From NCBI GenBank assembly GCA_964016885.1, contig OZ024746.1, positions 24,614,001-24,678,000 of the forward strand: 64,000 bases of DNA, written 5' to 3'. The first letter of the stretch is position 1; every line of letters starts with the position of its first letter. This DNA comes from Eledone cirrhosa (Eukaryota). The translations under genes were made by a program, and so were the position numbers. The notes beneath the pieces were generated by a model. The model was not told where the DNA came from and ran no database searches. It was given only the letters and a program-made list of their open reading frames with translations. Shown in pieces: positions 3,721 through 61,861 of the stretch.

Positions 3721-4519
3721 TATATATATATATATTGATTTATTATGGCTATTGATGAGTTTGTTACTCTAACGTTTCAACTGCAAACTCACAAGATCAC
3801 CAGTCTTGTCTGGTGTGTACGCAGGTGAAATTCCAGCGCAACAAGGCTTAGCCATAATAAATGAATATTTAAACTCTACTAAGTTTTCATTCTTACGTCC
3901 GTCAATAATTCACGTACTCTAAGGTCTTGAATAATCGTCACCCAACTCTCTGGATATGTCACTAACTTGCGGAGCTTAAACGTTTTTCTCTGTCGTACAA
4001 TGCCAATAGGTAATTATGGTACAATGATAAAGATTGTACTGTTAGAGAATTATCTTCCTGATATTATTTAATTCTATCCCTCAAACTTGTGAATTCAAAT
4101 TTAACAAGTATTGTCTTCGTATTTTCATCTTTTGATAAATTAAGTACCAGTTTCATTCAGTCTTACTGTAACACCCTGTCATACAAAATCCAGTGCGGCC
4201 ATGCACCAATGTAAATATGATGTGAATATCAATTCCATTTGTTTCAATCACAATTTAAACTTATTTACATACAAGAAAACAGAAGGGCATCTAACTGGTC
4301 GTCCAGTATGCAAGAAACAGCAGCCAAATTTCCTTAAGAAATATTAATATTTAAGACTAAATTGGAAAATATACGTTTGATACATGGCACATGAAGAGAA
4401 AAAGAGAGGATGCCTATAGCTGGAACTATTTTAATCATAGGTCTTCCTAAATCGGGTTGACATTAAGCTAAAACAACAAAAACAAAAGCATATTTACATA
4501 AACTATTTGTAAAGTCATT

Positions 4520-6187
4520 TTAAAAAAGAAAAGAAATATATGTACCTTTATTTTGTTGCCACGATTTTATTATCTGATCTAACCAATCTTCAATGTCAGC
4601 TGGGATTTCTGCCGGACTATTTTCTCGCCAGTCCGGCGTTTCCCCCAATTCATTCCCAGTGAATTCCATACTTTCTGCTATATCCAAACTGTTCTCAGAA
4701 TTCTGGCCACTTTTCGACTCTTCATCATTCATACTTTCCGGACTATTCATATAGGATGGAAGAAAGGAATTTTCATGTAAACCAAAGTGTCTCATGCTAG
4801 ACCTGCAGTCGCCATTTTCTTTGTAGCTAATGTGGCTGATGCTAAAGTTTTTGAAAACATTACGGTGACAGATATTATTATTATTGTTGTTTTTATTGTT
4901 GTTGTTGTGGCTATCACCGAGAGTATGTTTTGAATCTGACGACATTTGATGCTGACAAGAGACTGAATGTTCACGTTTTACCATGTCTTCTGATGTAAAT
5001 AAAGGGGGCAATATCATTGATGCTGATGTTGATGATGGTGATGACGATATTGGTGATGATAATGATGATCGTGATAACGTTGACGACGACGACGACGACG
5101 GTGGCGGCAATGATGGTGAAGGAAAGGAAGCTGTTTTTGTTCTAAACCCGCTGTTGTTGCTGTTGTTATTTCTACAGTGAACTCGTTTACATAGGACGAA
5201 TTCATTCGAAATTTCATTTTTGATTACTGGCGAATTTGCTTTAACAGCATTGGCGGCGGCAACAGCATCATCATCAACAGCTGCAATGGACGAAGTTTGG
5301 ATGTTCAAAGGTGGTTCTGGAAGCTGGGCGTCAGAAACGGACGAAACACTGGCCATTTTGGATAGACTGGTTGTTAAAATATTTTCCAGTTCCTGTACAG
5401 ATAAATCCGGAAGATGGCGCCTTAGTGAAGGAAGTCTCATTTTCGATAAATGCTTTCGCTTTGTAGCAATCTCATCGAAAAACGTTTCCACCAGTTTTGG
5501 ATCTATAACCGGAAGTTCCACTGCACGTCGCGGTTGAAAATGCTGTTGCTGGCCAAAGCTACTGAATAGATTGATTTCATTACATAACGCCTGTACGTAA
5601 TCACTGCTGACATTACCACCATTTAATTTATTGTTATTCACCTCGCATTTGGAATTACTGTGGTTAGTATTACTGCTGCTGCTGTTATTACTACTACTAT
5701 TACAAACACCACCAGTAATGCTATTCAACACGCCATTGCTATTACTAGTTGTACTACAAGAAATATTACGATTTGATAAACCACAATTGTTTTCATTGTG
5801 CAAGTTACACAATTTTGGAGATTTCAACGGCGATTGCTGCTGCTGTTGATGATCTATATATTGCTGGGGATGAATGTTTTCGGCGAGAGGTGACTGGCGG
5901 AAGTTAGAACTGTCATTAACTGTTGACATTTTCCGTTTCTTCTTCAGCTGCGTTGTTAAAGACAATAAACCCGATGATGACGGAGATGAGGTAGAAGATG
6001 AAAGACCAGCTTCTGAGGATCCATTTCGTGACGTTAGATTTTCAACTAGTTTTTTCATGGTTGCTATCGTTGCCACTGGTGTCGTTGCTTCTGCTGTAAC
6101 CGACGTAGAAACTGTATTGGTTGCCTCGGTGGGTACTAACGTTTGTTTCTCTGCTTTCAGTTGGACTGTTTTCGTTTTTTTGCAAGG
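4520..6187 (-). CDS. ORF B: probable C-terminal continuation of the NPAS4-like protein in the +1 frame (or a separately initiated ORF from ATG 6058)
   Basis: 555 open codons with the same S/N/Q-rich composition as ORF A. Contains NLS-like LKKKRK and acidic amphipathic motifs ELPVIDPKLVETFFDEI, LPDLSVQELENIL and DIEDWLDQIIKSW. Possible splice donor AAG|gtacat at 4545. Confidence 0.75.
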   Translation of the reverse strand, partial: PCKKTKTVQLKAEKQTLVPTEATNTVSTSVTAEATTPVATIATMKKLVENLTSRNGSSEAGLSSSTSSPSSSGLLSLTTQLKKKRKMSTVNDSSNFRQSPLAENIHPQQYIDHQQQQQSPLKSPKLCNLHNENNCGLSNRNISCSTTSNSNGVLNSITGGVCNSSSNNSSSSNTNHSNSKCEVNNNKLNGGNVSSDYVQALCNEINLFSSFGQQQHFQPRRAVELPVIDPKLVETFFDEIATKRKHLSKMRLPSLRRHLPDLSVQELENILTTSLSKMASVSSVSDAQLPEPPLNIQTSSIAAVDDDAVAAANAVKANSPVIKNEISNEFVLCKRVHCRNNNSNNSGFRTKTASFPSPSLPPPSSSSSSTLSRSSLSSPISSSPSSTSASMILPPLFTSEDMVKREHSVSCQHQMSSDSKHTLGDSHNNNNKNNNNNNICHRNVFKNFSISHISYKENGDCRSSMRHFGLHENSFLPSYMNSPESMNDEESKSGQNSENSLDIAESMEFTGNELGETPDWRENSPAEIPADIEDWLDQIIKSWQQNKGTYISFLF

Positions 6188-7227
6188 TTAGATCTGGCGA
6201 TGAAGCGGGCGAAGGATCCGGAGTCAGTATGCCATCAGGAATAGCTGCTATTTCTATTGGTTTTGTGAAAGCTTCCTCTGTCGAAGACTGCCAATACGAG
6301 TAGTTGTAGTTAGTCAAAGTTTTAATGTCCAATTGCTTCAGTTGTTTACTCTGGCTGCCGGTCAATGCAGAGTTATGGTAATATATGGGAGCCAAACATT
6401 GGATTGGACCGTACATACAACTACTTGAGGAGAATTCTAAGCCGGGTGAAGGATCTCCATTGGAAGACGATAAAGATGTCATTGATGACGATGATGACGA
6501 TGATAGCAAAGTTGAAGGTGATGAAAAAGATGTATTAGAAGAATTGCTATTGTATGTATAACCACCTCCTCCGCCCCCGCTTCCGACTAACAATTGACCG
6601 GTATAACCTCCCGTGCCCCCGAGTGCATTAATGGCGGACAGATAAAGATGTCCGTCACTGTGACTGTTTTTATTGCTGAAACAAGGCGACATAAGCCGGC
6701 CTAGTTTACGTGGATTACACTCTTGCATAGACGAGTCCTGGTTGGTCGATTGTAGTTTTCTTTTCAGAGCCAACACACCAATGGACTGGCTTCTTTTGTT
6801 CTCACTGTTGTTATTACAATTGCTGCGGCCGTTGTTACCACCATTATTATTATTACTATTATTACTATTATTACTACTACTACTGCCACTACTGCTACTG
6901 CTGCAGCTGCTGCTGCTAACTGCATTATTAGAATTGTTTTTATTGCTCTCACTATGGCTGTTATTTGTGTTATGAATGTTATTGTTGCTGTTGTTTTGGT
7001 TTCCACTGTTGTTGTTACTATTAATACTGCTGCTGCTACTATTACTACTGCTACTGCTGCTGTTGTTATAGTTATTGCTTATGACATTGTTTGTGGGAAT
7101 GTGTGGCTGTGGTGACGACCTTTGTGGCTGTTGGTTCTGAAGCAGCTGATTCGTGGTCGCATTGCTGCTGCTGTTGTTATTATTATTGTTGTTGTTATTA
7201 TTCTTATTATTATTGCTGCTGTTATTT

Positions 7228-7275
<48 letters not shown>

Positions 7276-7715
7276 CTACTGCTACCGCTGTTGCTATTGA
7301 TGCTATTATGGCACCCTTTAGAGACGTTGTGGATATCATCAGTACAATTCGTTTTACTACTGTTAGTAGAAAGTCCTCCTGGATGTCTACCTGTGGTAGT
7401 AGTATTGTTTGGCATGGAATCTACAATACTACTAGTTGTCTCTTGGAAACAAGCAGAACTGCTGCTATTTACCACAGATTCTATTAAAGGTTGGGCTTGT
7501 AAAGATGATGATGGCGGTGGTGGCAATGCTAGTGGTGGCGGTGGAAGTAGTTGAGCAACGGAAGTGTTCACTTGATTCGTTAAATGTGATGGTAGTTGTT
7601 GTTGCTGCTGCTGCTGCTGTTGTTGTTGTTGTTGGACAGCAGAAGGGGCTGATGTTGATAAAGGTGGCGGAGGTTGTAATGTTGGTGGTGGAGGCAGTAA
7701 TGTCTGCAGCTGTGG

Positions 7716-7747
<32 letters not shown>

Positions 7748-7899
7748 GGGGTGGTGGCGGTGGTGGAAGTGGTGGTGGAGGCAGGGCGGGACCAGCCGAT
7801 TGCCCTGAATTGACGTAACCACATCCGGTTGGCGCCATTTTAGGATAAGCTTGTAAAGGAATTCCGTAAGGGGAAAGATGTTGCTGTTGTTGGTGTTGC

Positions 7900-7936
<37 letters not shown>

Positions 7937-8394
7937 GAAGATGATGGTGATGATGATGAGAATGTGGATGTGGATGGTGTGGTGGAATCTGTTGGTGGCT
8001 TGATTGTTGCTGGTGAAGATGCTGCTGATGTTGGTGATGTTGTTGCTGTTGATGATGGTGATGGTGTGAAGATTGATGTTGTTGTTGAGCTTGTTGCTGC
8101 TGCTGTTGTTGCTGCTGCTGCTGTTGCTGTTGGTGATGAGCATGTGACGGGTGAAGGTGGTGATGATGGTGATGGTGATGTCTGTCTATACTGAATGTCG
8201 TATACGCATGAGCCATGGGATCATCGTAGACAATCTGCTGCATGTGTGGTGTCAACAAGTCTTCCGGTTGTATGGAGGCTGCCATGGGGTAGTATGCAGC
8301 CCCGGGAGGGAGCATATCTATTGCAGGTACCTGTGTGGCGCAGGCCGAGGAATAGGCATAAGCTGGCCCTCTTAACTGACAAGCCTCGTCTTCA
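6042..8394 (-). CDS. NPAS4: Giant low-complexity exon, ORF A (poly-H/Q/P/N/S putative transactivation region), ending at TGA 6044-6042
   Basis: Acceptor tttttctttccag at 8396-8395 joins in phase 2 (N-EDEACQLRG...) and runs in frame into the listed 757-aa ORF. Confidence 0.85.
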
Positions 8395-8456
8395 CTGGAA
8401 AGAAAAAGACCAAAAAATACAGATTAGGCAAGGAATAGATAGAAATACATAGATAC

Positions 8457-9486: not shown

Positions 9487-9878
9487 CTAGCAGTAAAGCC
9501 CGGCGTTGCTCGGGGTCGCTCAGTAGCTGTGTTAAAGTTACAATGTTGAGTTTCTTTTTTGGCTTAAAGTCTGTCTGCACGACTGTCTGACCTGCACGCC
9601 TAACGAAATTTACAGATACATATATTTTAAATAAAGACGCTCAATGTAAACAGAACAAAGGGAAATAACTCGTCACTTACGCTCAAAAATCGATACATTA
9701 GATTCGATTTCGTCACATAGGGTGGGTCAATTTGAAATATTTTTTTTCCAATGTCTTCGCTAGGGCTCAATGTACAAGTATAGCAATTTCGGTGCAATTC
9801 CGTCAGAGATTCTAAGAGGAGATGTGTGCCAAAAATCGATAGACAGACAGACAACCACAGCTTTATATATATAGAAGA
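9487..9878 (-). mobile_element. Non-autonomous Helitron
   Basis: On the minus strand: 5' TC, internal (TCTG)n, subterminal hairpin CCCGagcaacgcCGGG, 3' CTAG; inserted between A and T with no TSD. Confidence 0.75.
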
Positions 9879-10713
9879 TTGTAGAATTGACAGAAATAGC
9901 AGAGTCGTTCGAACGTCGGATACAAAGCTTGCAGTATTCGTTCTGGCTCTCTGCACTCAACTTTGCTTTCCATCTTTTCGATGTTGATAAACAAAGTACC
10001 AGTCTAGTACTAATGCTGATTCTTCAAGAATATCGCTTTAACACTTTATCTACTCTCTTTCTTTCTTTATCGCTCTTTCTCCCCCCCCCCCCCCTCTCTA
10101 TCCGACTTGGAGAATGGTGGACTCTGCTGTCAGGTTTAAAATGTCCAAGATATGCTATGTGTTAAGATGACGCCCCTACAGCTCTATTAATGGTTGGATT
10201 ACAATGTTTAAGGGTGTATATCTAAAAATAAATATATTTTTCGTTTATACCGATAAGATGGTTGACGTAGGTTGTTTTGCTCTTGGCATTTTCAATCTAC
10301 ACGATTTTGAGTTCAAATTTCACCGAGTCTATATTGTATTTCATTCTGCCATTGTTGATAACACAAACGAATCAGGTGCATGGACTGACACAATCGTTAA
10401 TGTATTTGAAAATATAATATACCTTACGGTATTTTTTCCGGCTCTTTATGTTCTGAGTTCAAATCCGACTCAACAGTGAAATCTCTATGTAGTCGCTCAA
10501 ACTACATGATATAGCAGTTAAATCTCCCTCAAATCATGGGAGAATTTCAAATAAGCGAGTAAATCACGCATCGAAAATACTGAATTTTGATTGGTTGATT
10601 GATTCGTAAAGGAGAAATTCTTTCTCTTCTTCCTCTGAATAGATCAACCAATCAAAATTCAACATTTCTTATATTATAATTTTTAATAAACCATATGTGA
10701 CATTTCATCTTAC

Positions 10714-10867
10714 TTGATTACTTGGTTGACACACACCACGACAGGATCGTCACTGTTGGCCAGCGCTTGTCTCACGTGCATCACCATGTTAACCCAGATA
10801 TGTTGGCCGTTGGCCATGAGCATGCGCACTGTAAGCATACAACCCATTTCATGGCGAGACTTGATTA
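10714..10867 (-). CDS. NPAS4: PAS-B/PAC exon
   Basis: ctttctttcag|(L)IKSRHEMGCMLTVRMLMANGQHIWVNMVMHVRQALANSDDPVVVCVNQVI|gtaaga; PAC motif R.....G..IWV; phase 1 in, phase 2 out. Confidence 0.9.
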
Positions 10868-10999
10868 CTGAAAGAAAGACACAAGGAAAGAAATAAAGCT
10901 AAAGATAAAATAATTAAGTTATTTTATACAAAGTCGGCCAAAAAATGTACATACACTTCAGGAAAAGAAACTTGTATAAATATTTAACTTGTTTAAATA

Positions 11000-11059
<60 letters not shown>

Positions 11060-11062
<3 letters not shown>

Positions 11063-11202
11063 CGAAGGAGGTGTGGTAAGGAACCAGATGGACCATAACG
11101 CACCAAAGTACTCAATACTTAGGGTAGTAGAGTGGGTAATAGGAAAATGTTTGACCCCGACGGCAGAGCTCAAGCCGTTTCGACAGCTATTTCTGGACAG
11201 TC
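11060..11202. mobile_element. Foldback repeat family C in (TA)n; other copies at 31029-31234, 37233-37318 and 42218-42335
   Basis: Shared ggtaaggaaccag.tggaccataacgcaccaaagtactcaatact and gaccccgacggc.gagctcaagccgtttcgac blocks in varying orientations, always between TA runs. Confidence 0.85.
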
Positions 11203-11209
11203 TATATAT

Positions 11210-11276
<67 letters not shown>

Positions 11277-11278
11277 CA

Positions 11279-11318
<40 letters not shown>

Positions 11319-11320
11319 CA

Positions 11321-11360
<40 letters not shown>

Positions 11361-11362
11361 CA

Positions 11363-11420
<58 letters not shown>

Positions 11421-11434
11421 CATACATATATAAT

Positions 11435-11478
<44 letters not shown>

Positions 11479-11488
11479 CATACATATA

Positions 11489-11562
<74 letters not shown>

Positions 11563-11585
11563 CATACATATATATATATATATAT

Positions 11586-11650
<65 letters not shown>

Positions 11651-11659
11651 CATATATAT

Positions 11660-11895
11660 AAAAGATGAATTTCCATGTTGAGATATCTTGATGCAAGAAA
11701 TCCCAGTAGAAGGAAGACGCAGTAGAGGAAGACGACGAAAAACATGGACGCAGGTGGTGAGAGCTGATCTCACATCGCTGAAGCTCGCAGAGGAGATGAC
11801 GAAGGACTGTGACGAAAGGAGAGATGCTGTGCTGAATAGGACTCGTCCCACCCTTGCAAGTAGGGAAAAGGCGGACGTAAAATGATGATAATAAT
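11660..11895 (+). mobile_element. RTE-clade LINE 3' fragment
   Basis: [25 protein letters not shown] matches the RTE C-terminal G.R.RGRP...W motif; short tga/taa repeat tail. Confidence 0.75.
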
Positions 11896-12052
11896 ATATA
11901 TATATATATAATATAGTAATAATAATAAATTTGAAGACTAAAATCCAAAGAGGGCTCGATAAGGATAAATATATATCAAATATATAAGAACCGTAGAGCA
12001 AATATTTTAATAAATTAATATATATATAATATATATATATATATAATATATA

Positions 12053-12126
<74 letters not shown>

Positions 12127-12271
12127 TGGTAAATCACTGATGAGGGACTCATTTTATAACATGTTATCCATGTGCAACCATGCAGTATTCTACCTCCCCA
12201 TTTTTTCACATATATATATATATATATATACGATATTAAACAAATGGAAACTATATTTATAAAACCATATC

Positions 12272-12337
12272 TATTTCATTATACATATTTCAGGGATTCC
12301 ATATTAAAAATATGGCATGCCTTCTTCAGATAAAATA
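12272..12337 (-). ncRNA. Type I hammerhead ribozyme motif, sense to the NPAS4-like pre-mRNA (intronic)
   Basis: Inverted copy of the 12433-12498 motif with one substitution in stem II; core intact. Confidence 0.75.
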
Positions 12338-12432
12338 CAATATATAAGCAGTTTTATAAATAAATTTGACGTACCATAAGATATTGATCAACTTCCATTT
12401 AAAAAAGTTGGTTATATATTGCTTATATATTG

Positions 12433-12498
12433 TATTTTATCTGAAGAAGGCATGCCATATTTTTAATATGGTATCCCTGAAATATGTATAATGAAATA
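12433..12498 (+). ncRNA. Type I hammerhead ribozyme motif
   Basis: Stem I UAUUUUAU/AUGAAAUA; core CUGAAGA (12441); stem II AGG-c-AUGCCAUAUU-uuu-AAUAUGGUAU-c-CCU; GAAA (12479); near-palindromic minimal stem III AUAUGUAU; cleavage triplet AUA. Confidence 0.78.
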
Positions 12499-12625
12499 GA
12501 TATGGTTTTATAAATATAGTTTCCATTTGTTTAATATCGTATATCTACTCCAAAACTTGTTGAGTGCTTTATATCAGTTATAAAATATTTACTCGTTGTA
12601 ACCCAACAATTTTAAATAAAACTTT

Positions 12626-12667
<42 letters not shown>

Positions 12668-13123
12668 TTTCTTTCCTGAAGTGTGTATGCATTTTATTGA
12701 CGGACTGTATATATTTGTTTATTTCTATTGTTACATATACAACAAACATTGTTAAGATGTTCAGGAGAAGATGGTGGAAGAATGGCAACATTCAGATATT
12801 TCGTTTATATATAAGGGCCGAAACACTTGCATGTGGTGTGGTTTTTTTCTCTGAAGACCTTCTGCTGTCCAGCTCACTTCAGAGTTCCTTACCACCTTAG
12901 AATGCATGAGAGTGTCCTTGACTCTATTCAGATTTTGCGAAATTTTTACAACGTGGCACCAAAGGTAGCTAAGGTCAAGATAACTGTGTTAAACAGGTCG
13001 ACGGATTAAATCTATCACTCAAATCGGCATTGGTGCGATTTGAACTCAGAACATATGGCATCCCATAGAAGGAAGAGGAGGAATGGGGAAGGGGATGGAG
13101 GAGGAGGAGGCAAATGAACTCAC

Positions 13124-13230
13124 ATTGAATATGTTTGGTTTGTCCTTCCCATATATCTTCAGGGTGTAAAAATGAATACCAAGACTTGGAGATTATTTCT
13201 TCGCTGGAGAATCCCAAATGAAATTCACCA
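13124..13230 (-). CDS. NPAS4: PAS-B exon
   Basis: atttcag|(S)GEFHLGFSSEEIISKSWYSFLHPEDIWEGQTKHIQ|gtgagt; SWY..LHPED is the PAS-B hallmark; phase 2 in, phase 1 out. Confidence 0.92.
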
Positions 13231-13294
13231 CTGAAATCAGAAAAAAAAAAGATTTCAAATAATAAAGGTTTCTAACGTAGTAATTTGTAGGGTG

Positions 13295-13790
13295 GAGTAG
13301 AAAGTCAGTTCTATCGACACCAATACCTAACTTATTTTATTGACCTCGGAAGGATGATAAGCAAAGTTGACCTTGGCGGAATGTGAACTCAGAACGTAAA
13401 GTGCGCTGCACCATTTAGTTACGATCCTTCAAGTTCTGAGTTCAAATCCTGCCAGAGTTAAATTTGACATTAATCTTTCCGAGGTCGATAAAATAAAATA
13501 CCAGATAATTACTGGGTTAATATAATGGAATTTCACCTTCCTCAAAATTGATAGACTTGAGTCAAAGTTAGAGAGAAAAAAATAATGATTTCTAATTTAG
13601 GAACAAGGCCAGTAATTAGGAAGAATAGAAAGTCTATTAAATCGACCCCAGCACTTAATTGGTACTTTCTTTTATCGACACCGGAAGGATGACAGGCAAA
13701 GTTGACTTCAGCGAGATTTGAACTCAGAACGTAGAAAGTCCTAACTATATACCGCGAAGCATTTTGTCCGAGATTCTAACAATTCTGCCA
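13295..13790. mobile_element. Cluster of three fragments of the dominant tRNA-like SINE in alternating orientation
   Basis: ttctgagttcaaat..cgcc.agg...actttgc...catcctt.cg.ggtcgataaaataa motif on - (13295-13400), + (13430-13570) and - (13590-13790). Confidence 0.75.
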
Positions 13791-14341
13791 AATATACTAA
13801 AATATCTCTATCAATTTATTTTCTTTTTTTTTAACAGGCATACATTACACACACGCAGAGGCGCGCGATGACCATCATCACTGCCACCAACACATCAAGT
13901 TGACAAGTCAATTATAAAAAACCCAATAAAGTTCAATTACAACAACAACAACAACAACAACACCCCCTCCCCCTCCCCCTCTCTCTCCCTCTCCCTCTTT
14001 CTCTCTCTTCACGTACTTCATCTCTCCGTCTAGTAGATCACATGATCACATCACCTTAGTATGTTCTGCTGACACAGGCATGGCTGAGTAGAGAATCATT
14101 AAGTTCTAGAACGACCTCGGTTCCTTACCAATGTATCTGCTGAATATATATTGAGGAACACCAACAGTGTGAAACAGAATCTGTCAGCTTCTCCCCCTTC
14201 CTTTGCCGAAAAAAGAAGTAAGTGACATGGTCACTATTTTAAAATGATAGCGCAAGGTCTTCAAAATGTTTTTAATTAAACATACGGTATATTGCCAAAT
14301 ATACTATACATACATTCCTATATATATATATATATATATAT

Positions 14342-14688
14342 AGAAGAAGAAGAAGAAGAAGAAGAAGAAGAAGAAGAAGAAGAAGAAGAAGAAGAAGAAG
14401 AAGAAGAAGAAGAAGAAGAAGAAGAAGAAGAAGAAGAAGAAGAAGAAGAAGAAGAAGAAGAAGAAGAAGAAGAAGAAGAAGAAGAAGAAGAAGAAGAAGA
14501 AGAAGAAGAAGAAGAAGAAGAAGAAGAAGAAGAAGAAGAAGAAGAAGAAGAAGAAGAAGAAGAAGAAGAAGAAGAAGAAGAAGAAGAAGAAGAAGAAGAA
14601 GAAGAAGAAGAAGAAGAAGAAGAAGAAGAAGAAGAAGAAGAAGAAGAAGAAGAAGAAGAAGAAGAAGAAGAAGAAGAAGAAGAAGAAG

Positions 14689-14769
<81 letters not shown>
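14342..14769 (+). repeat. Compound (GAA)~116(CAA)~26 tract, intronic
   Basis: Direct reading; uninterrupted. Confidence 0.95.
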
Positions 14770-14774
<5 letters not shown>

Positions 14775-14811
14775 GATGTTACATATGTGATTTTGCACGT
14801 ATGTATATATA

Positions 14812-14844
<33 letters not shown>

Positions 14845-14877
14845 TATGGAATACTGTTGGCTTTTTCTATACCTTTC

Positions 14878-14918
<41 letters not shown>

Positions 14919-15067
14919 ATAAAAGAGAAAACACAGGTAAGCATTAAAAAAGGTTTTTATCCAGGTATTTACGACCGTTACATTGGTAAGTGCAGCCTTA
15001 TATTGCTATACTGCAAATAGCAGCCACTGAAACCGTCCATGAAACTATATATATATGTGTATATGTA

Positions 15068-15142
<75 letters not shown>

Positions 15143-15415
15143 GCATATTTGTATGTGGATGCTGGGTTTATATTTACAATGTGTGCTATATGATCACGAA
15201 TTAGAAATTCGGAACATAATATGAGGGATGACGCTAGTACAAGAGCCGTACAGAGAGGGAGAGGGAGAAAGTGGGAGAGAGGGAGAGACACGAGAGGGGG
15301 GAGGGGGTGTATGAGGAAGATGATCCAAATAACCATGGTTGACAGCGATATGTTTCAGTGAAACTACGCTGGGATGACCTAAAGTCAAATGGAGAAGATT
15401 AGAGTTTCACCTCAC

Positions 15416-15603
15416 CTGTGTGATATCTCCAAGTAGGTCATATCGAGACGATGTGCCGACTTAAATATCATCGTATCACTGAGCAAAAGTGTGTCTTTGC
15501 TGTCAATAGTTATCAGGGGATAACAAAATGAGGCGAACACTAATTGTTCCCCGCCTCGTTCTGGATCAGGAACCGCTACAAAATGTCCGCGGACGTGCAT
15601 CGT
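15416..15603 (-). CDS. NPAS4: End of PAS-A / start of PAS-B exon
   Basis: ttcaacag|TMHVRGHF...VFASFCYPLI...FKSAHRLDMTYLEISH|gtgagg; 188 nt, phase 0 in, phase 2 out. Confidence 0.9.
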
Positions 15604-16207
15604 CTGTTGAAGAAAGAAATAGAAAAAGATAGAAAACGTATAAAGACATGATGGAATGCATGACAACAAGTGAAATAGTGAACATGAATTAACTGTTAAT
15701 ATGGTGCCGTAATAAAAAGAGTTTGATTAGGTAGCGTCTGTAGATCCCATGCCAAATATGAATAAAAGATTAGTATTTGTCTGTCTATTTGTATGTATGT
15801 ATGTATGTATGCATATATGTATGTGTGTATGTATGTATAAACGCATGTAGGTTTATATATGTATATATGTATGTATGTATGTAGATGTTCAATGTTACTT
15901 GTTTTCGATGTGTTCAAATCCTACTGATGTCAACTTTGCTCTTCGTAATTCAAAGATTGATAAAATGTAGTGTACATCAATGGAATTTTTATCTCAGAAC
16001 TAAAAGGGACATAAAAAAAAAACCCACAAATTATTTTTTTTCAACCATCATACCCATTCTATCATTTCAGTTTCCTATATAAACATTCAATTATCGATCT
16101 GGTAAGATAATTTGGAACTTTAGCAACACTTCAAAAGAAAAACGTCTCTGTAAGAACACACACACACACATACATATATGTGTGTGGGTATATATATATA
16201 TATAAAG

Positions 16208-22006: not shown

Positions 22007-25000
22007 TTCTTTATTAGCCACAAGGGCGCACAAGAAAAGGGGACAAAACAAAGACATGCCGGGGATTTTACATACAATCGTGTAAAAAAATATAAAACAA
22101 ACAATTATAACAATCGAAATCCCCAATAGGTGGGGGGGGCACAAGTGGGTTGTTTAATACCCCGTCGATAGAACAACCCTCAACTTCAGGAGCATGTTGT
22201 GCAAGTGCTCCTTTCTTCCTTTTGCTTTCTTCTTCAACCTACAGGCTTATATACAGAGAAGGCCCAATCACTCGGGCCATTTTTGCCACATTCACCCACC
22301 TTTAAGTAAATTTACTGGGGTGCAGTGCCTCTCTCTCCATTCTGATACTCCTTCTAAAGTGATACTTAAAGAAGGGAATCAATTGTTGTCCGGAGAGAAA
22401 GGCATCTGTCCTCAGTCCTCTTAACCTCGTCCACCATATAACCTCTTTCACCATAGCCACCGTACAGAGGAAAGCCGCCTCTCTTTCGTTTTTGAAAGAG
22501 GCTGGCGGTTTGATCCATACTATGGACTCGGCAGTCAATTGGATTTGTCCCATACGCGACAGCAGTTGTTCCGCGTAGTTTCACAGGTCGGTTGCGCCCG
22601 GGCAGTGTACAATTGCGTGCAGGACGGTTTCAATGTCCTGCACGCATCTTGGACACGTCCTCTTGGAAGGATCCCTGCCGGAGCGTCCATGCCTGTAGAT
22701 CTTGTCACGAACTAGTAGAGCTCCTCGGTAGCACTGCCAGGCCAGGGACCTCTGGAAGTTGTCCATAGGTCCCGGGCGGAAAGTCCTACCAAGCAGACTG
22801 GCGAGCTCATCGTCTTCGACGCCCAGAGTCTCTCCGAGCACGTCGTCGCCCTTGTAACGTACAATGCCTCTATAGAATGTCGAAGTGGAGTCTTCACTGA
22901 TTGCTGTTCCAGCTTGTCAGAGGACTGTGAGCGCCTGAGCGCATTCAATATGCCAGGCGCCCATCGTTTTCGGTCTTTTCTTGACTGCAGCTCCGTCAGC
23001 GAGACGAGCTGCGGGAAAGCCTGTCTCACAAACGGTGTCCACACCGGTTGGAGGTCGGTGAGGAATACATGGAGATGCCGCAGCCTCAGCGCATGTTTGC
23101 GCATCATCAGCCACGGCATTCCCAGCCCTCCGTTGGAAGGGTGCTGGCAGCAGACGGATCTCCTCACCAGCAGAGCCTGCTTCTTCCACAGAAACTGGAA
23201 GAGCATGCGTTCCATCTTTGCGAAGTGTTCACGGGGACAAGGCACGACACTCAAGCGGTAGTAAATGACGGACGCTATGAAAGTGTTCGCCACCTCCGCT
23301 TGACCTTTCAGAATCGTGGATTTGTTGCCACTTTTTGCCTCCGCCACTCGGGCCCAGCTGACAGCTTTCGCTCCTTCGTTTCTTAGAGCACGTGTTTTGC
23401 TTCTGACCACGCAGCCTTCGTGTTTCTCGTCGAAGAACTGGTTCAGTGCCGTTCTCGGCGCTAACACTCTAGCCGCGTTGCCACTTCTAAGTGCCTCCTC
23501 TACCTTGGCTACTCTCTATTCTATTTTGTTTTTTCTCTAAGGCTAACTCTCTGCTAAACCCTATCGATTCTACTCTAATTGCTTTCTTGAGAGAGTACCA
23601 CCATCTATTGTTGACGATGGCTCCCGTTAACTGTTGCTTGACTAGTCTACTTATCCGTTCACTGTAAGCTTTACGTGCCGGCAACGACACGTTCAGCTTC
23701 CAGTATCTGGGTTCCTGTCTATGTGTTCTATCACGGTTGACTATGCAGACGACTAATTTGTGATCTGAATAGGCAACCATGTGCATTCGTGGACAGCTTA
23801 ACATCTCCTTGTCCCTTTCTCTAATGAAGAACCCATCTAAATACGATCTAGATGTCCCGCTGCGGTTTGCCCACGTCCACTGTGGTGCAGTCGGGAAATC
23901 CAGTCGATACCTATCGGCCAGTTGGAATAGGCCGATTAAAGTGTTGAAGCTGTTGCACCCCCTCTACTGGAACATGATCCTACATAGTCCCATCGTGCAT
24001 CTAGGATACTATTCCAGTCCCCCACTAAAAGCAAGGAGCGACACGTTTCCAGAAAAGACTCTAGACGCTTGAAGAAGTTTGGCCGCGATTGCCCAGTCAG
24101 AGCATAAACGGCTACCAGTCTGAAGGCTCCACTTCCAACACTGTTCACGTCTAGGACTACCAGTCGACCCTCCGGGTCCAAATGTACTTGCTGTATTTTG
24201 ATGTCCAGGTTTTTCCGAAACATGACAGCTACTCCCCCTCCACCTCCTGGCTGACTGAGAGATGCAGAGATCTCAAAGTCGTCGAAGATGAGGGTCAGCT
24301 GCTGCCTGTTGTGGATCCTGGACTCGGTGATGGCTATCACATCTATATCGCGTGACCTAAGCTCGTTTAAGAGTTTGCCTTGTTTCCAGGGCATCCCTAG
24401 GCCACGCACATTCACACTTCCAACTCGTAAATCAGCCATGTTGGTGTAGAAGAGTTGGCAAAATAGGGACGAAAGGATGCACTTACTTTTCCGTTTCCTG
24501 GAGATCGGGTTGTTCGATCTCCATTTCAGTTTTGGTGGTGGTGTTGAGTGGGGTGGGGAACATTTCAACAGGGCACGGTTTATTGGTTTTTGGTATGGGT
24601 TCCCAACGTCCTGTGAAAATTGGTTCTTTAGTTTTTGGTAGGTTTCTAGCGGAACCCTTATTAGTTTGAGGTGTGATGCAGTGTCAGATTTTACAAATGT
24701 TTTCCCCTCAGTTTCCACTTTGGGGTCCTGGGAAATGATCTCTATTAAATTGTTATTGTTGGTGTTGATGTATGTATATTGTTGTTTTTGTTTTGGTTGT
24801 GTTGTTTTAGTTTGTTTTTTGTCTGTGAGTTTTTTTTGTGTTTGGGGTGGTGTTGGTAGGGGGAGGTTTGGTTGTGGTCTTGTTTGTGTTGTTGTTTGTG
24901 TCTGTGGCTGTGTGTTGGTGCTGGTGAGTGGAGTTTTGGGGGTTTTGCAGAGTCTCTTTTTTTGTTTGTTTTTTTGTTTTGTTTTTATTTCCTTCACTTA

Positions 25001-26000
25001 AAGAAGGAGAAGCAGCCTCATCCGTCGATGAATGATCGTCGTCAGGAGTGTGGGGTAGGGGAATGTTGTGTGGTGATGGTGTTTCGGTGTGTGCGTTTGT
25101 GGTAATGTTTGATGGAGTTGGATGGGGTGTGGTTGTGTTCTTCAGAGGTGTTGTCTGTGTTTTTTTCTGTTGTTGTTGGTTGAATGTCTGTTTGTTTTGG
25201 TGTGTTTGCTCGTTTCGTCTGTTGTTGTACTTGTGGTGGTGGTTGTTTCGGTGTTGGTAATAGTGGTTTTTTTAAAATGATGTTGTTGTGGTGTATTTGT
25301 GAAGGACAGGAGACCTTTAGGTGTGCTGTGCTACTACAGCGAAGGCAATGAGGTTTACGCCCCTCCACCGAAATGTTTATCTTGTTGTTGTCGTCGATGA
25401 CGACTTTTTCGGGTATTTTGGAGATTCTCTCCGGCCTTATCTGCATCAGAATCTCCAAATCAGTACCCGCCCACCTTTGTCTAATAGACTTCCGTACCGA
25501 AAGAATACCATCAGTCCCTGGCCCCACTAAGCCAGCCAAGATCCACCAGATGTTAATGTTTGGTGGTATATTTTTTATTTTGATTTTTTGTGTCCTTTTT
25601 CCCCATGTACGTAGGGAAAAAGGTAAATGTTTTTGACACTATTGGTGTCACAGAATGTTTTGGGGCGAGTGCCTCGCTTTTAAACAGTACGGAAATACTT
25701 CCGTACTGTCTTCCTCGTTGAAGAAAGTCAATATTTTCTAGAGTCTCCTTCAAGGTGGCTTCTATGTCTCCTTGACTCACAAATACTAGCTTTCTCGTTG
25801 TGTTTGAGACAGTCCTGAAGGTCACTGTCCTTCGAACCGTCTCTTCTTTTATTTCGAGGGGTGAGTTGATTCTAAACCCACCCTTGTCTCCGAAAGTTAC
25901 AAATTTTCTCCCTTGCTGGAGCATATCCCTTGCATTAGAGATGTCAAGATTTATAAAATCTTGTTTCTTGTTCAGCGAAATACATTTTTTGTGGTCTTGC

Positions 26001-26042
<42 letters not shown>

Positions 26043-26590
26043 CAGCCTCGGTGTTAGAAATCGCAATTTCTTGAGGAGTTGAAACTTTATCTATGCATGT
26101 ATCCATGGAGTTGTTGTTGTTGGCTTTTTCATGTGTATGTATATGAATAGGTTTAATTTCTGTGTTTTCTGTATTTTTCTGTGTATGCTGCGTGTTATTT
26201 TCCTCCACTTCGACGGTAGAAATTTTAAAATGTTCAAGTGGCAATATTTTTTCTTTGTTGACAGTCGTATCCATGACGACGTCCATAGTGGCAGAAGCAG
26301 ATATAACGTTAATATCTGTCTTTCTACCTTTCTTCTCTCTGTTAACATTCTTCGGCGTTCTTTCCGAGTCACTCATTTTTTATAGTCGGCAAAATTTGAT
26401 TTTTTTTAACAATTTTTAAATTAAATTTTCGCCCCTTTAGGGGCGAAAAATGGGATTACCACCCAGCTGACAATTCAGCTTGGCGGTTAATCTACAAAAT
26501 GATATGTTTTTTCAAACAATTAGTCCAGTTTTTTGTATAGAAATTTACAAAAAAAGCTTACCAGCGATGTTCCACGCGTCAGGTATATCC
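22006..26590 (-). mobile_element. Tx1/L1-group non-LTR retrotransposon, decayed, RT core deleted, inserted in (TCTA)n
   Basis: ORF1 pieces with CCHC knuckle CLRCSSTAHLKVSC. ORF2 from ATG 24439 with APE motifs (SVNVRGL, IAITES, LVGDWN, YSDH, YWKLN), post-RT GGLGMP and zinc motif CPRC...ETVLHAIVHCP. 3' AATAAA; GATA repeats on both flanks. Confidence 0.92.
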
Positions 26591-61315: not shown

Positions 61316-61404
61316 ATTAAAAACCTTTTTTGTATAGCAAACCGTGTCACTCTTCTTTCCTGATTTATATATATATATATAAATTTTACATATATATATA
61401 TATA

Positions 61405-61790
61405 TGGAAAGTTATATTTAAATTGTTGGGTTACAACTAGTAAATATTTATAACTGATATAAAAGCACTCGACAAGTATTTGGAGTATATTTACGATATT
61501 AAATAAATGGAAACTATATTTATAAAACCATATTTATTTCATTATATATATTTCAGGGATATCATATTAACAATATGCTATGCCTTCCTCAGACAAAATA
61601 CTGCCAATTCAACTTTTCAAATACAAGTCGATGTTGAACGGTATGTCGAATCTATTTATCTATAAAACTGTTTATATTGTATTTTGTCTGAGGAAGGCAT
61701 AGCATATTGTTAATATGATATCCCTGAAATATATATAATGAAATAAATATGGTTTTATAAATATAGTTTCCATTTATTTAATATCGTATA
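61405..61790. mobile_element. Second family A foldback with two hammerhead motifs (61535-61600 minus, 61680-61745 plus)
   Basis: Homologous to 12228-12628; core CUGAGGA, stem II AGG...CAUAUU-guu-AAUAUG...CCU, GAAA, AUAUAUAU stem III. Confidence 0.8.
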
Positions 61791-61861
61791 TATATATATA
61801 TATATTTATAGTCGATGTGACTGCCACGTTTCTAATATATATATATATATATTACAATAAT

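What the first reader, a model, noticed from the sequence alone, without database searches (positions are those of the whole stretch)
12228..12628. Intronic double-hammerhead foldback: a sense ribozyme in the NPAS4-like pre-mRNA preceded by its own antisense arm
Seen: each arm holds a complete type I hammerhead, one per strand. In the minus-strand pre-mRNA the antisense arm (12543-12420) is made first and can pair over about 125 bp with the ribozyme (12337-12272). Established: Penelope-like elements and retrozymes carry minimal type I hammerheads with palindromic stem III that often act as dimers; coleoids have very high ADAR activity. Inference: a self-silenced ribozyme whose masking duplex is an editing substrate, so editing or folding kinetics could decide whether the intron is cut. 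It may instead be neutral transposon debris.
Basis: partly seen in the sequence, partly recalled or inferred. Interest (0 to 1): 0.75.

Follow-up and report, generated by a model that had tools for sequence, protein, structure and literature searches.

The report
Inverted Penelope stump in octopus intron
This 400-base hairpin in an intron is two back-to-back truncated ends of a very common Penelope-type jumping gene; each end carries a hammerhead ribozyme motif that is predicted to be locked shut by the other arm, so it is likely ordinary transposon debris rather than an RNA-editing switch.

Summary
In detail: 128-nt arms, 98% complementary, one type I hammerhead motif per strand, inside a spliced GT-AG intron of a PAS-domain gene. 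It is not a host device. It is two 5'-truncated 3' ends of a young Penelope-like retrotransposon joined head to head in a (TA)n tract. The parent (RT + C-terminal GIY-YIG, Hydra-like motifs, about 4.1 kb) is in the same genome. The hammerhead pattern occurs 14,262 times (control 0), and 27 of 31 close neighbours have this same geometry. An inverted copy, a one-sided tail, (TA)n targets and opposite-strand hammerheads are all published PLE traits. 'Antisense arm first' follows from the geometry on either strand. Opening the ribozyme costs about 93 kcal/mol; even complete editing of the antisense arm leaves about 20. Cleavage and editing were not measured. One useful by-product: both arms share source-lineage variants, exactly one arm is tailed (29 of 29), and arms are often non-nested, which suggests two priming events on one RNA. 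The scan has noted such foldbacks before on other octopus DNA.

The parts
12226..12413 (-). Inverted, tailless, 5'-truncated copy of the element's 3' end (pLTR); read in sense by the host pre-mRNA
   Evidence: Maps to positions 4220-4032 of the natural full-length copy L066:5516-9850 at 96%; outer end blends into (TA)n
12272..12337 (-). Type I hammerhead motif, host-sense copy: core from 12329, predicted cleavage after 12280; carries a private change at 12298 that breaks one stem II pair
   Evidence: local fold -11.7 versus -16.4 kcal/mol for the other arm
12414..12419 (.). 6-nt junction between the two truncated copies, not matched to the element
   Evidence: inverted arm ends 12413, sense arm starts 12420
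12420..12544 (+). Sense-orientation 5'-truncated copy of the element's 3' end (pLTR); antisense to the host transcript
   Evidence: Maps from position 4093 of L066:5516-9850 at 99%
12433..12498 (+). Type I hammerhead motif, plus-strand copy: core from 12441, predicted cleavage after 12490
12545..12628 (+). One-sided tail (about 84 nt). In full-length copies the same sequence lies between the 5' pLTR and the ORF start
12210..12227 (.). (TA)n target tract, left flank
   Evidence: sequence
12629..12663 (.). (TA)n target tract, right flank
   Evidence: sequence
10868..13123 (-). Host intron (2256 nt, GT-AG); the element lies 495 nt from the donor and 1360 nt from the acceptor
13124..13233 (-). Upstream host exon, PAS-B start; best solved-structure match NPAS4
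   Evidence: (Pfam PAS_3, below cut-off)
10714..10867 (-). Downstream host exon, likely PAS-B continuation
   Evidence: only weak HIF-1a matches

Best explanation
The foldback is two 5'-truncated 3' ends of an abundant Penelope-like retrotransposon joined head to head in a (TA)n tract of an intron, likely made in one recent insertion event and likely neutral, with both hammerhead motifs predicted to be silent. Shown: the parent element, the architecture, the copy number, and that the intron is spliced. Inferred: the endonuclease nicked both strands of the TA tract and each free end primed a cDNA on element RNA from the same source, one at the tail end and one about 84 nt upstream (both sites carry a short TA match to the target). 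Both cDNAs stopped early and were joined at their 3' ends. The hammerhead belongs to the parent's cycle, where the 5' and 3' pLTRs supply two sense copies that could pair through the palindromic stem III. Here only one sense copy exists per strand, and it is predicted to zip into a duplex of about 125 bp as it is transcribed, so the pre-mRNA would not be cut.
For: Parent: 9 long loci fetched. Two of them (L062, L066) show the whole layout: inverted tailless copy, 5' pLTR with tail, ORF, long 3' UTR, pLTR with tail. The ORF aligns with RT + GIY-YIG relatives at 37-44% identity and has DKT, YRDD, CxCX5C, CxxC and CxH motifs. Abundance: 7129 + 7133 exact pattern matches, control 0. Among the first 100 listed, 31 adjacent pairs lie within 5 kb: 27 divergent like this one, 3 +/+, 1 -/-, 0 convergent; 8 are within 300 bp. 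Of 30 tail-anchored loci (29 insertions), 21 have an inverted copy ending at the tailless boundary, 3 have an inverted copy whose end was out of view, 5 have none, and 11 are short foldbacks like this one. Made at insertion, not copied as a unit: 28 distinct junctions among 29 loci. Arms of one insertion differ at 0.96 of 96 sites against 1.78 between insertions (47 pairs, 0 of 20000 permutations). Exactly one tail in 29 of 29 loci picked with a tailless query, and in 3 of 3 apparent exceptions checked afterwards. Silencing energies. Literature: inverted 5'-truncated copy, one-sided tail and (TA)n bias (PMC8557442); dual hammerheads 100-700 bp apart on opposite strands, and no detectable cleavage by a single minimal motif (PMC4209133); both strands nicked and extended, with the tail lying between two RT start sites (PMC11167929).
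Against: Neutrality is inferred from youth (one internal arm difference), abundance and one stem-breaking change. No population or cross-species data for this site were available. Silence rests on ViennaRNA energies with stand-ins for inosine. The anole PLE hammerhead is protein-assisted, which these energies ignore. Rfam does not detect the motif. Pfam gave no match for the three ORF pieces scanned, so the RT/EN call rests on motifs and on homologues (many carry PF26215). Arm concordance shows a shared source lineage, not necessarily one RNA molecule, and gene conversion could also produce it. One marker was discordant (L013), and a variant seen in 3 arms was one-sided in both paired cases. 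No target-site duplication can be read in TA tracts.
Confidence: 0.88

Rival explanations
1. Editing- or kinetics-gated ribozyme switch: ADAR editing or pausing frees the host-sense hammerhead, which cuts the intron and tunes expression of the PAS gene.
For: The motif is intact apart from one stem II mismatch and lies in sense in the pre-mRNA. The duplex has 100 adenosines. High coleoid ADAR activity is recalled knowledge, not tested.
Against: About 93 kcal/mol to open; 53 at 80% editing with A-to-G as a stand-in; 19.9 with every antisense-arm A made non-pairing. The monomer fold is disfavoured by 8.9 kcal/mol even in the isolated arm, and the stem III dimer duplex is only -2.2. The duplex is predicted to form before the core is made. 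A correctly spliced contig exists, though it is not known whether that animal carries the insertion. The geometry is generic.
Confidence: 0.03
2. Same origin, but the duplex matters to the host without cleavage: as an editing substrate, a small-RNA source, or a modifier of splicing rate or nuclear retention of this pre-mRNA.
For: A near-perfect duplex of about 125 bp is predicted in the pre-mRNA. That long intronic duplexes are ADAR substrates is established knowledge (recalled).
Against: The element is 495 and 1360 nt from the splice sites and young. Editing of such a duplex would be a passive outcome shared with many other copies. No data on an effect.
Confidence: 0.06
3. A non-autonomous element (MITE-like or retrozyme-like) that moves as a fixed 400-bp unit.
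For: The first search returned 40 of 40 scored candidates with a similar overall size at 90-100% identity. Outer ends are constant.
Against: That uniformity comes from the query. Inner junctions differ in 28 of 29 copies. Among close neighbours on C1, divergent motif pairs lie 86 bp to 4.3 kb apart, and arms reach a whole 4-kb unit. Ends are asymmetric (one tail). There are no tandem direct repeats.
Confidence: 0.02
4. Same element, but the second arm arose by snap-back (self-priming) on the first cDNA or on an antisense template rather than by a second priming on RNA.
For: It would explain arm concordance. Junction overlaps occur in 22 of 29 copies and cluster near a small template hairpin (BLAST ends may inflate overlaps). 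Self-priming on an antisense template was proposed in PMC3846280 (passages).
Against: Simple snap-back needs one arm nested in the other. Here the tailless arm reaches 61 nt further upstream while the other arm alone has the tail. The same holds in 19 of 29 copies and in 3 copies whose tailless arm is a whole unit. Later deletion or resection would have to be added.
Confidence: 0.2

Closest known systems
Hydra clade of C-terminal EN+ Penelope-like elements (Craig et al. 2021, PMC8557442), including Hydra-1_Obim of Octopus bimaculoides and Penelope-13_HM
   Same: RT + C-terminal GIY-YIG; DKT; CxCX5C linker; CxxC and CxH around the catalytic E and N; (TA)n target; type I hammerhead near the 3' end. 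Penelope-13_HM is listed with a 5'-truncated inverted copy and a hammerhead on each strand.
   Different: A different family from Hydra-1_Obim (its listed hammerhead differs in all three stems). RWR instead of RWK. About 4.1 kb from ORF start to tail end, with a 3' UTR of about 1.8 kb, against 'generally <3 kb'. Tail about 84 nt against 30-40. Stem II hairpin of 31 nt, longer than in the Hydra elements listed.
Dual minimal hammerheads on opposite strands in Schistosoma mansoni PLE remnants (Cervera and De la Pena 2014, PMC4209133)
   Same: Two PLE hammerheads about 100-700 bp apart on opposite strands, attributed to truncated PLEs; palindromic stem III; dimer-dependent, low activity.
   Different: Different clade and host. 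Stem III here is 8 nt and could close 2 bp as a monomer. That paper did not discuss masking by the opposite arm in the parts read.
Inverted-pLTR insertions of Adineta vaga Penelope elements (PMC3846280) and PAc Poseidon in vitro (PMC11167929)
   Same: Head-to-head inverted pLTR, optional tail on one of the inverted pLTRs, junction overlaps; nicking and extension of both strands, with two RT start sites bounding the tail.
   Different: Here both start sites carry a short TA match to the target, whereas PAc initiates at a site not homologous to the cut DNA. PAc showed no strand bias in start site, whereas genomic copies here pair one tailed end with one tailless end in every case seen.
Non-LTR retrozymes (PMC7229834; bioRxiv 10.64898/2026.07.22.740005)
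   Same: Non-coding, type I hammerhead, PLE-related, low GC.
   Different: Retrozymes are tandem direct repeats giving unit-length and circular RNAs. This is an inverted pair with one sense motif per strand and no fixed unit.

Membership tests
EN+ Penelope-like element insertion | Derived from an element with RT and GIY-YIG endonuclease in one ORF | tested here: met
   Both arms map at 96-99% to the 3' end of L066:5516-9850, whose ORF aligns over RT and EN motifs with 6 relatives. All copies seen carry stops or frameshifts. No Pfam hit for the pieces themselves.
EN+ Penelope-like element insertion | pLTR formed by partial tandem: the 3'-end sequence repeated upstream of the ORF | tested here: met
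   L062 and L066; 9 of 12 ORF-anchored loci show an inverted copy directly upstream as well (two of the 12 are L062 and L066 again).
EN+ Penelope-like element insertion | Inverted 5'-truncated copy adjacent at the 5' end | tested here: met
   This copy, and 24 of 29 tail-anchored insertions.
EN+ Penelope-like element insertion | Tail extension at one end only | tested here: met
   12545-12628; 29 of 29 and 3 of 3. About 84 nt, longer than the published 30-40.
EN+ Penelope-like element insertion | Target-site duplication | tested here: inconclusive
   Both ends blend into (TA)n; the same difficulty is noted in PMC8557442.
Hydra clade | DKG motif modified to DKT | tested here: met
   SDKTNN in L066 and L062.
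Hydra clade | RWK motif | tested here: inconclusive
   RWR at the aligned column where 5 relatives have RWK; a conservative change.
Hydra clade | CxCX5C linker; CxxC and CxH around the conserved E and N; no CCHH | tested here: met
   Read by eye in alignment A2 against the description.
Hydra clade | (TA)n insertion and a canonical hammerhead near the 3' end | tested here: met
Hydra clade | Generally short, <3 kb (descriptive in the paper, not diagnostic) | tested here: not met
   About 4.1 kb from ORF start to tail end. One reason I write 'Hydra-like'.
Hydra clade | RT phylogeny groups with named Hydra elements | not tested
   No named reference proteins were held as stored sequences; no tree was built.
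Type I hammerhead ribozyme | Core CUGANGA / GAAA / NUH with three stems | tested here: met
   In 20 hand-picked variants (of 48 found) the core is invariant apart from N7, stem III stays self-complementary through an A-U to G-C double change in one lineage, and 12 of 12 stem II pairs show two-sided changes. The variants were selected by a pairing-based scan, so the 93% paired figure is partly circular.
Type I hammerhead ribozyme | Match to an Rfam hammerhead covariance model | tested here: not met
   No hammerhead family at gathering score or at E up to 10. This tests the models' reach and is not a defining feature of the chemistry.
Type I hammerhead ribozyme | Self-cleavage | not testable with these tools
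   Predicted weak as a monomer and blocked in the foldback.
Non-LTR retrozyme | Tandem direct repeats, each with a hammerhead | tested here: not met
   Inverted pair; one sense motif per strand.
MITE / TIR element | Terminal inverted repeats at both ends and a uniform internal structure among copies | tested here: not met
   One-sided tail beyond the repeat; 28 different junctions in 29 copies.
Host-co-opted intronic ribozyme | Conserved at the orthologous intron across species | not testable with these tools
   No relative genomes are held; the relative's contig in X3 is spliced.

The most novel reading that the evidence does not exclude
These foldbacks record how Penelope-like elements build their inverted ends: an overlapping twin priming in which both nicked target strands prime on one element RNA, at two TA-matching sites about 84 nt apart, and the two cDNAs are joined at their 3' ends. 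That one step would explain the one-sided tail, the shared variants of the two arms, the non-nested arms and the junction overlaps. The thousands of young copies in this genome would then make a long-open part of the PLE mechanism countable, and would mean that about half of the element's ribozymes are born masked.
Probability: 0.4. Interest if true: 0.45.

Novelty: new member of a known kind. Interest (0 to 1): 0.15.

Why it matters
The locus itself matters little: it is one of many like insertions of a known type of element. As a class, this family puts about 14,000 hammerhead motifs into a 3.0-Gb genome, about half of the sampled ones in inverted pairs (54 of 100). That is a large supply of potential double-stranded RNA in a lineage known for heavy RNA editing. 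The strict one-tail rule with shared-lineage, non-nested arms is also a usable constraint on how PLE inverted ends form, which PMC8557442 lists as unresolved. If the editing-gated switch were real it would be striking, but the energetics make it very unlikely.

Tried and rejected
Rfam scans found no hammerhead family. Pfam found nothing on three parent ORF pieces, and nothing on 7 of 9 window ORFs scanned. My first reading, a fixed-length non-autonomous unit, was dropped once a tail-only query showed arms of all lengths. Sequencing runs: no RNA holder listed. Only contigs were available, so ends, strand and editing could not be read. X24 has no cover of unique intron DNA at 12697-12785, and X1 laid nothing. 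Laid on the full element, X24 showed A>G + T>C at 84 places against G>A + C>T at 69, confounded by copy divergence; X3, X2 and X4 laid 1, 1 and 0 records. None of this is evidence for or against editing or presence in relatives. The T>C at 12331 in X24 is a subfamily variant also present in run X21, which holds the unspliced intron DNA, so it is not editing. The ORF-anchored part printed nothing because of a script slip and was redone. No covariance model was built, as it would have been circular. No tree was built. The sequence look-up among earlier findings gave one unrelated phage note. Paper searches found no description of this particular octopus family and no paper applying twin priming to PLEs. 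The library lacks most subscription papers, Repbase was not searchable, and the supplements of the bioRxiv preprint were not seen, so this is not proof of absence.

Full report
Observation. The inverted repeat is real: arms 12223-12350 and 12420-12547, 128 nt, 98% complementary, differing at one flank base and at 12298/12472. A structure-based scan of both strands of the window finds four type I hammerhead motifs: one in each arm here and a second pair near 61.5 kb. Thirty block-shuffles of the window give none. Each motif has an 8-bp stem I, the CUGAAGA core, a 31-nt stem II hairpin, GAAA, an 8-nt self-complementary stem III and an AUA site. Rfam does not detect it. The site lies in a 2256-nt GT-AG intron. 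Contigs from 2 of 4 runs laid join exon 13124-13233 to exon 10714-10867, one of them (X24) with no difference from the window. The upstream exon's best solved-structure match is NPAS4 (E 4.7e-5).

What it is. A search with the foldback gave 1170 candidates, 40 scored, all 90-100% alike over most of the query. A search with only the tail and arm end gave 984 candidates, 40 scored, all identical. Many of those extend far upstream. Nine were fetched at 10 kb. L062 and L066 show the full layout: an inverted tailless copy, a 5'-truncated pLTR with tail, an ORF of about 740 codons (interrupted in every copy seen), a 3' UTR of about 1.8 kb, and a final pLTR with tail. The ORF has 59 relatives at E up to 1e-10 among 5924 candidates, the best from Argonauta. 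[quoted passage not shown] These match the published diagnostics of the Hydra clade, apart from RWR for RWK and the greater length (PMC8557442 section 11). The supplement lists an octopus Hydra family with a different hammerhead, and Penelope-13_HM with an inverted copy and a hammerhead on each strand. The window's arms map to the last 270 nt of L066 at 96-99%. The left arm runs 61 nt further upstream, which makes up most of the apparent spacer, and only the right arm has the 84-nt tail.

How common. A tight pattern for the motif matches 7129 + 7133 times in 3.0 Gb, control 0. In the first 100 listed matches, 31 adjacent pairs lie within 5 kb. Of these 27 are divergent like this one, 3 are +/+, 1 is -/- and none is convergent; 8 are within 300 bp. 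Of 30 tail-anchored loci (29 insertions), 21 have an inverted copy ending at the tailless boundary, 3 have an inverted copy with its end out of view, and 5 have none. Eleven are short foldbacks. In a head-to-head pair, a transcript from either side meets the antisense arm first, so that order needs no selection. Opposite-strand hammerhead pairs 100-700 bp apart were already reported for PLE remnants (PMC4209133).

How it formed (inferred). Inner junctions differ in 28 of 29 copies; 22 show overlaps, 2 are flush and 5 have short inserts (BLAST ends may inflate overlaps, and these 29 were picked by likeness to the window copy). So the foldback is not copied as a unit. The two arms of one insertion are more alike than arms of different insertions: 0.96 against 1.78 differences in 96 columns, 47 pairs, 0 of 20000 permutations (17 of 123 arms below 93% identity were dropped first). 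Lineage markers were shared by both arms in 19 pairs. One pair was discordant, and one variant seen in three arms was one-sided in both paired cases. Exactly one end is tailed in 29 of 29 loci chosen with a tailless query. Three loci whose short arm carried the tail were fetched as a test, and in all three the long unit ends tailless. In 19 of 29 loci neither arm contains the other, which simple snap-back copying cannot give. Both outer ends carry a short TA run in the full-length element. The simplest model is that both nicked target strands prime cDNA on RNA from one source, at the two TA sites, and that the cDNAs join at their 3' ends. This fits the in vitro finding that a PLE protein nicks and extends both strands from two start sites bounding the tail (PMC11167929), although that system showed no strand bias and no target homology. 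Self-priming on an antisense template has been proposed instead (PMC3846280). Twin priming in L1 is recalled; the search gave listings only.

Is the ribozyme real, and could it act here? A pairing-based scan of 431 kb of held DNA found 152 motifs in 48 variants. In 20 picked for divergence the core is invariant apart from N7, stem III stays self-complementary (including an A-U to G-C double change in one lineage), and all 12 stem II pairs show two-sided changes. 93.4% of cells pair against 82.5% shuffled, 0 of 500. This is partly circular, because the scan required pairing, and stem II alignment across families is uncertain. It still supports selection on the fold in the transposon lineage. 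In this insertion the monomer fold is disfavoured by 8.9 kcal/mol in the isolated arm, the stem III dimer duplex is worth -2.2, and opening the motif within the foldback costs 93. Pairing starts at the inner ends, and 22 of 22 sense-arm bases are predicted paired when the core begins. With A-to-G as a stand-in, 80% editing leaves 53 kcal/mol and destroys the core. With only the antisense arm edited and edited bases unable to pair, 30% editing leaves 65 on average and 100% leaves 19.9. The host-sense motif also carries a private change that breaks a stem II pair. A single minimal PLE hammerhead showed no detectable cleavage in vitro, and the anole one needed its protein. None of this was measured for this RNA. 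The available runs were contigs without cover of unique intron DNA next to the element, so editing and cleavage remain untested.

Papers seen. PMC8557442: passages, section 11, supplement listing and part 2 of 59. PMC11167929: parts 1-2 of 4. PMC4209133: parts 1-2 of 4. PMC3846280, PMC7229834 and PMC6962438: passages. bioRxiv 10.64898/2026.07.22.740005: part 1 of 5 and passages, supplements not seen.

Verdict. A new family-level member of a known kind: a short, young, inverted-pair stump of a Hydra-like PLE in an intron, with predicted-silent hammerheads. Earlier notes of this scan, read after my reading was fixed, report the same kind of thing at other octopus loci, one in this genome; they are unchecked and are not counted as support. 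Interest 0.15. The most novel reading left open is mechanistic (twin priming on one RNA; probability 0.4, interest 0.45). The editing-gated switch is put at 0.03.

Noticed in passing
window 61397-61794: A second foldback of an older subfamily (83-91% to the young family), tail on the left, two intact hammerhead motifs (cores at 61592 and 61688), also in (TA)n.
   Followed up: partly
L043:1780-1845, L055:150-218, L005:3187-3237, L029:161-211, L072:2732-2782, L082:229-279, L008:1109-1157: At least three further type I hammerhead families, unlike this one in stems I-III, each with its own palindromic stem III, turned up in flanking DNA.
   Followed up: no
L064:3377-4725 and L068:5865-6524 (coordinates of the re-oriented loci): Fragments of other, diverged PLE ORFs with the same CxCX5C and GIY-YIG pattern, so several Hydra-like families coexist in this genome.
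   Followed up: no
L062:4930-5980: Two foldback insertions of different subfamilies stacked in one TA tract directly upstream of a full-length unit.
   Followed up: no
L066, about 70-90 nt upstream of the last hammerhead core (element positions 4030-4055): Inner junctions of short foldbacks cluster near a small template hairpin, a possible RT stall or cDNA annealing site; sampling favoured copies like the window's.
   Followed up: partly
L066:5516-5659 and 9548-9830: In run X24 summed contig depth over the pLTR and tail is 10,000-16,000 against about 200 over the ORF. Could be passive read-through of thousands of stumps or an abundant short RNA; contigs cannot tell.
   Followed up: no
window 4520-6187 and 6042-8423, minus strand: Two long low-complexity ORFs (555 and 793 aa) overlap by about 145 nt in different frames, downstream of the PAS exons: a possible frameshift, assembly error or small intron in the host gene's last exon.
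   Followed up: no
window 22700-26400, minus strand: Decayed LINE-like element with an exonuclease/endonuclease/phosphatase domain (PF03372).
   Followed up: no
window 13021-13765: Several copies of a short dispersed repeat, including an inverted pair 13398-13516 / 13647-13765 at 71%, flanking the upstream exon.
   Followed up: no
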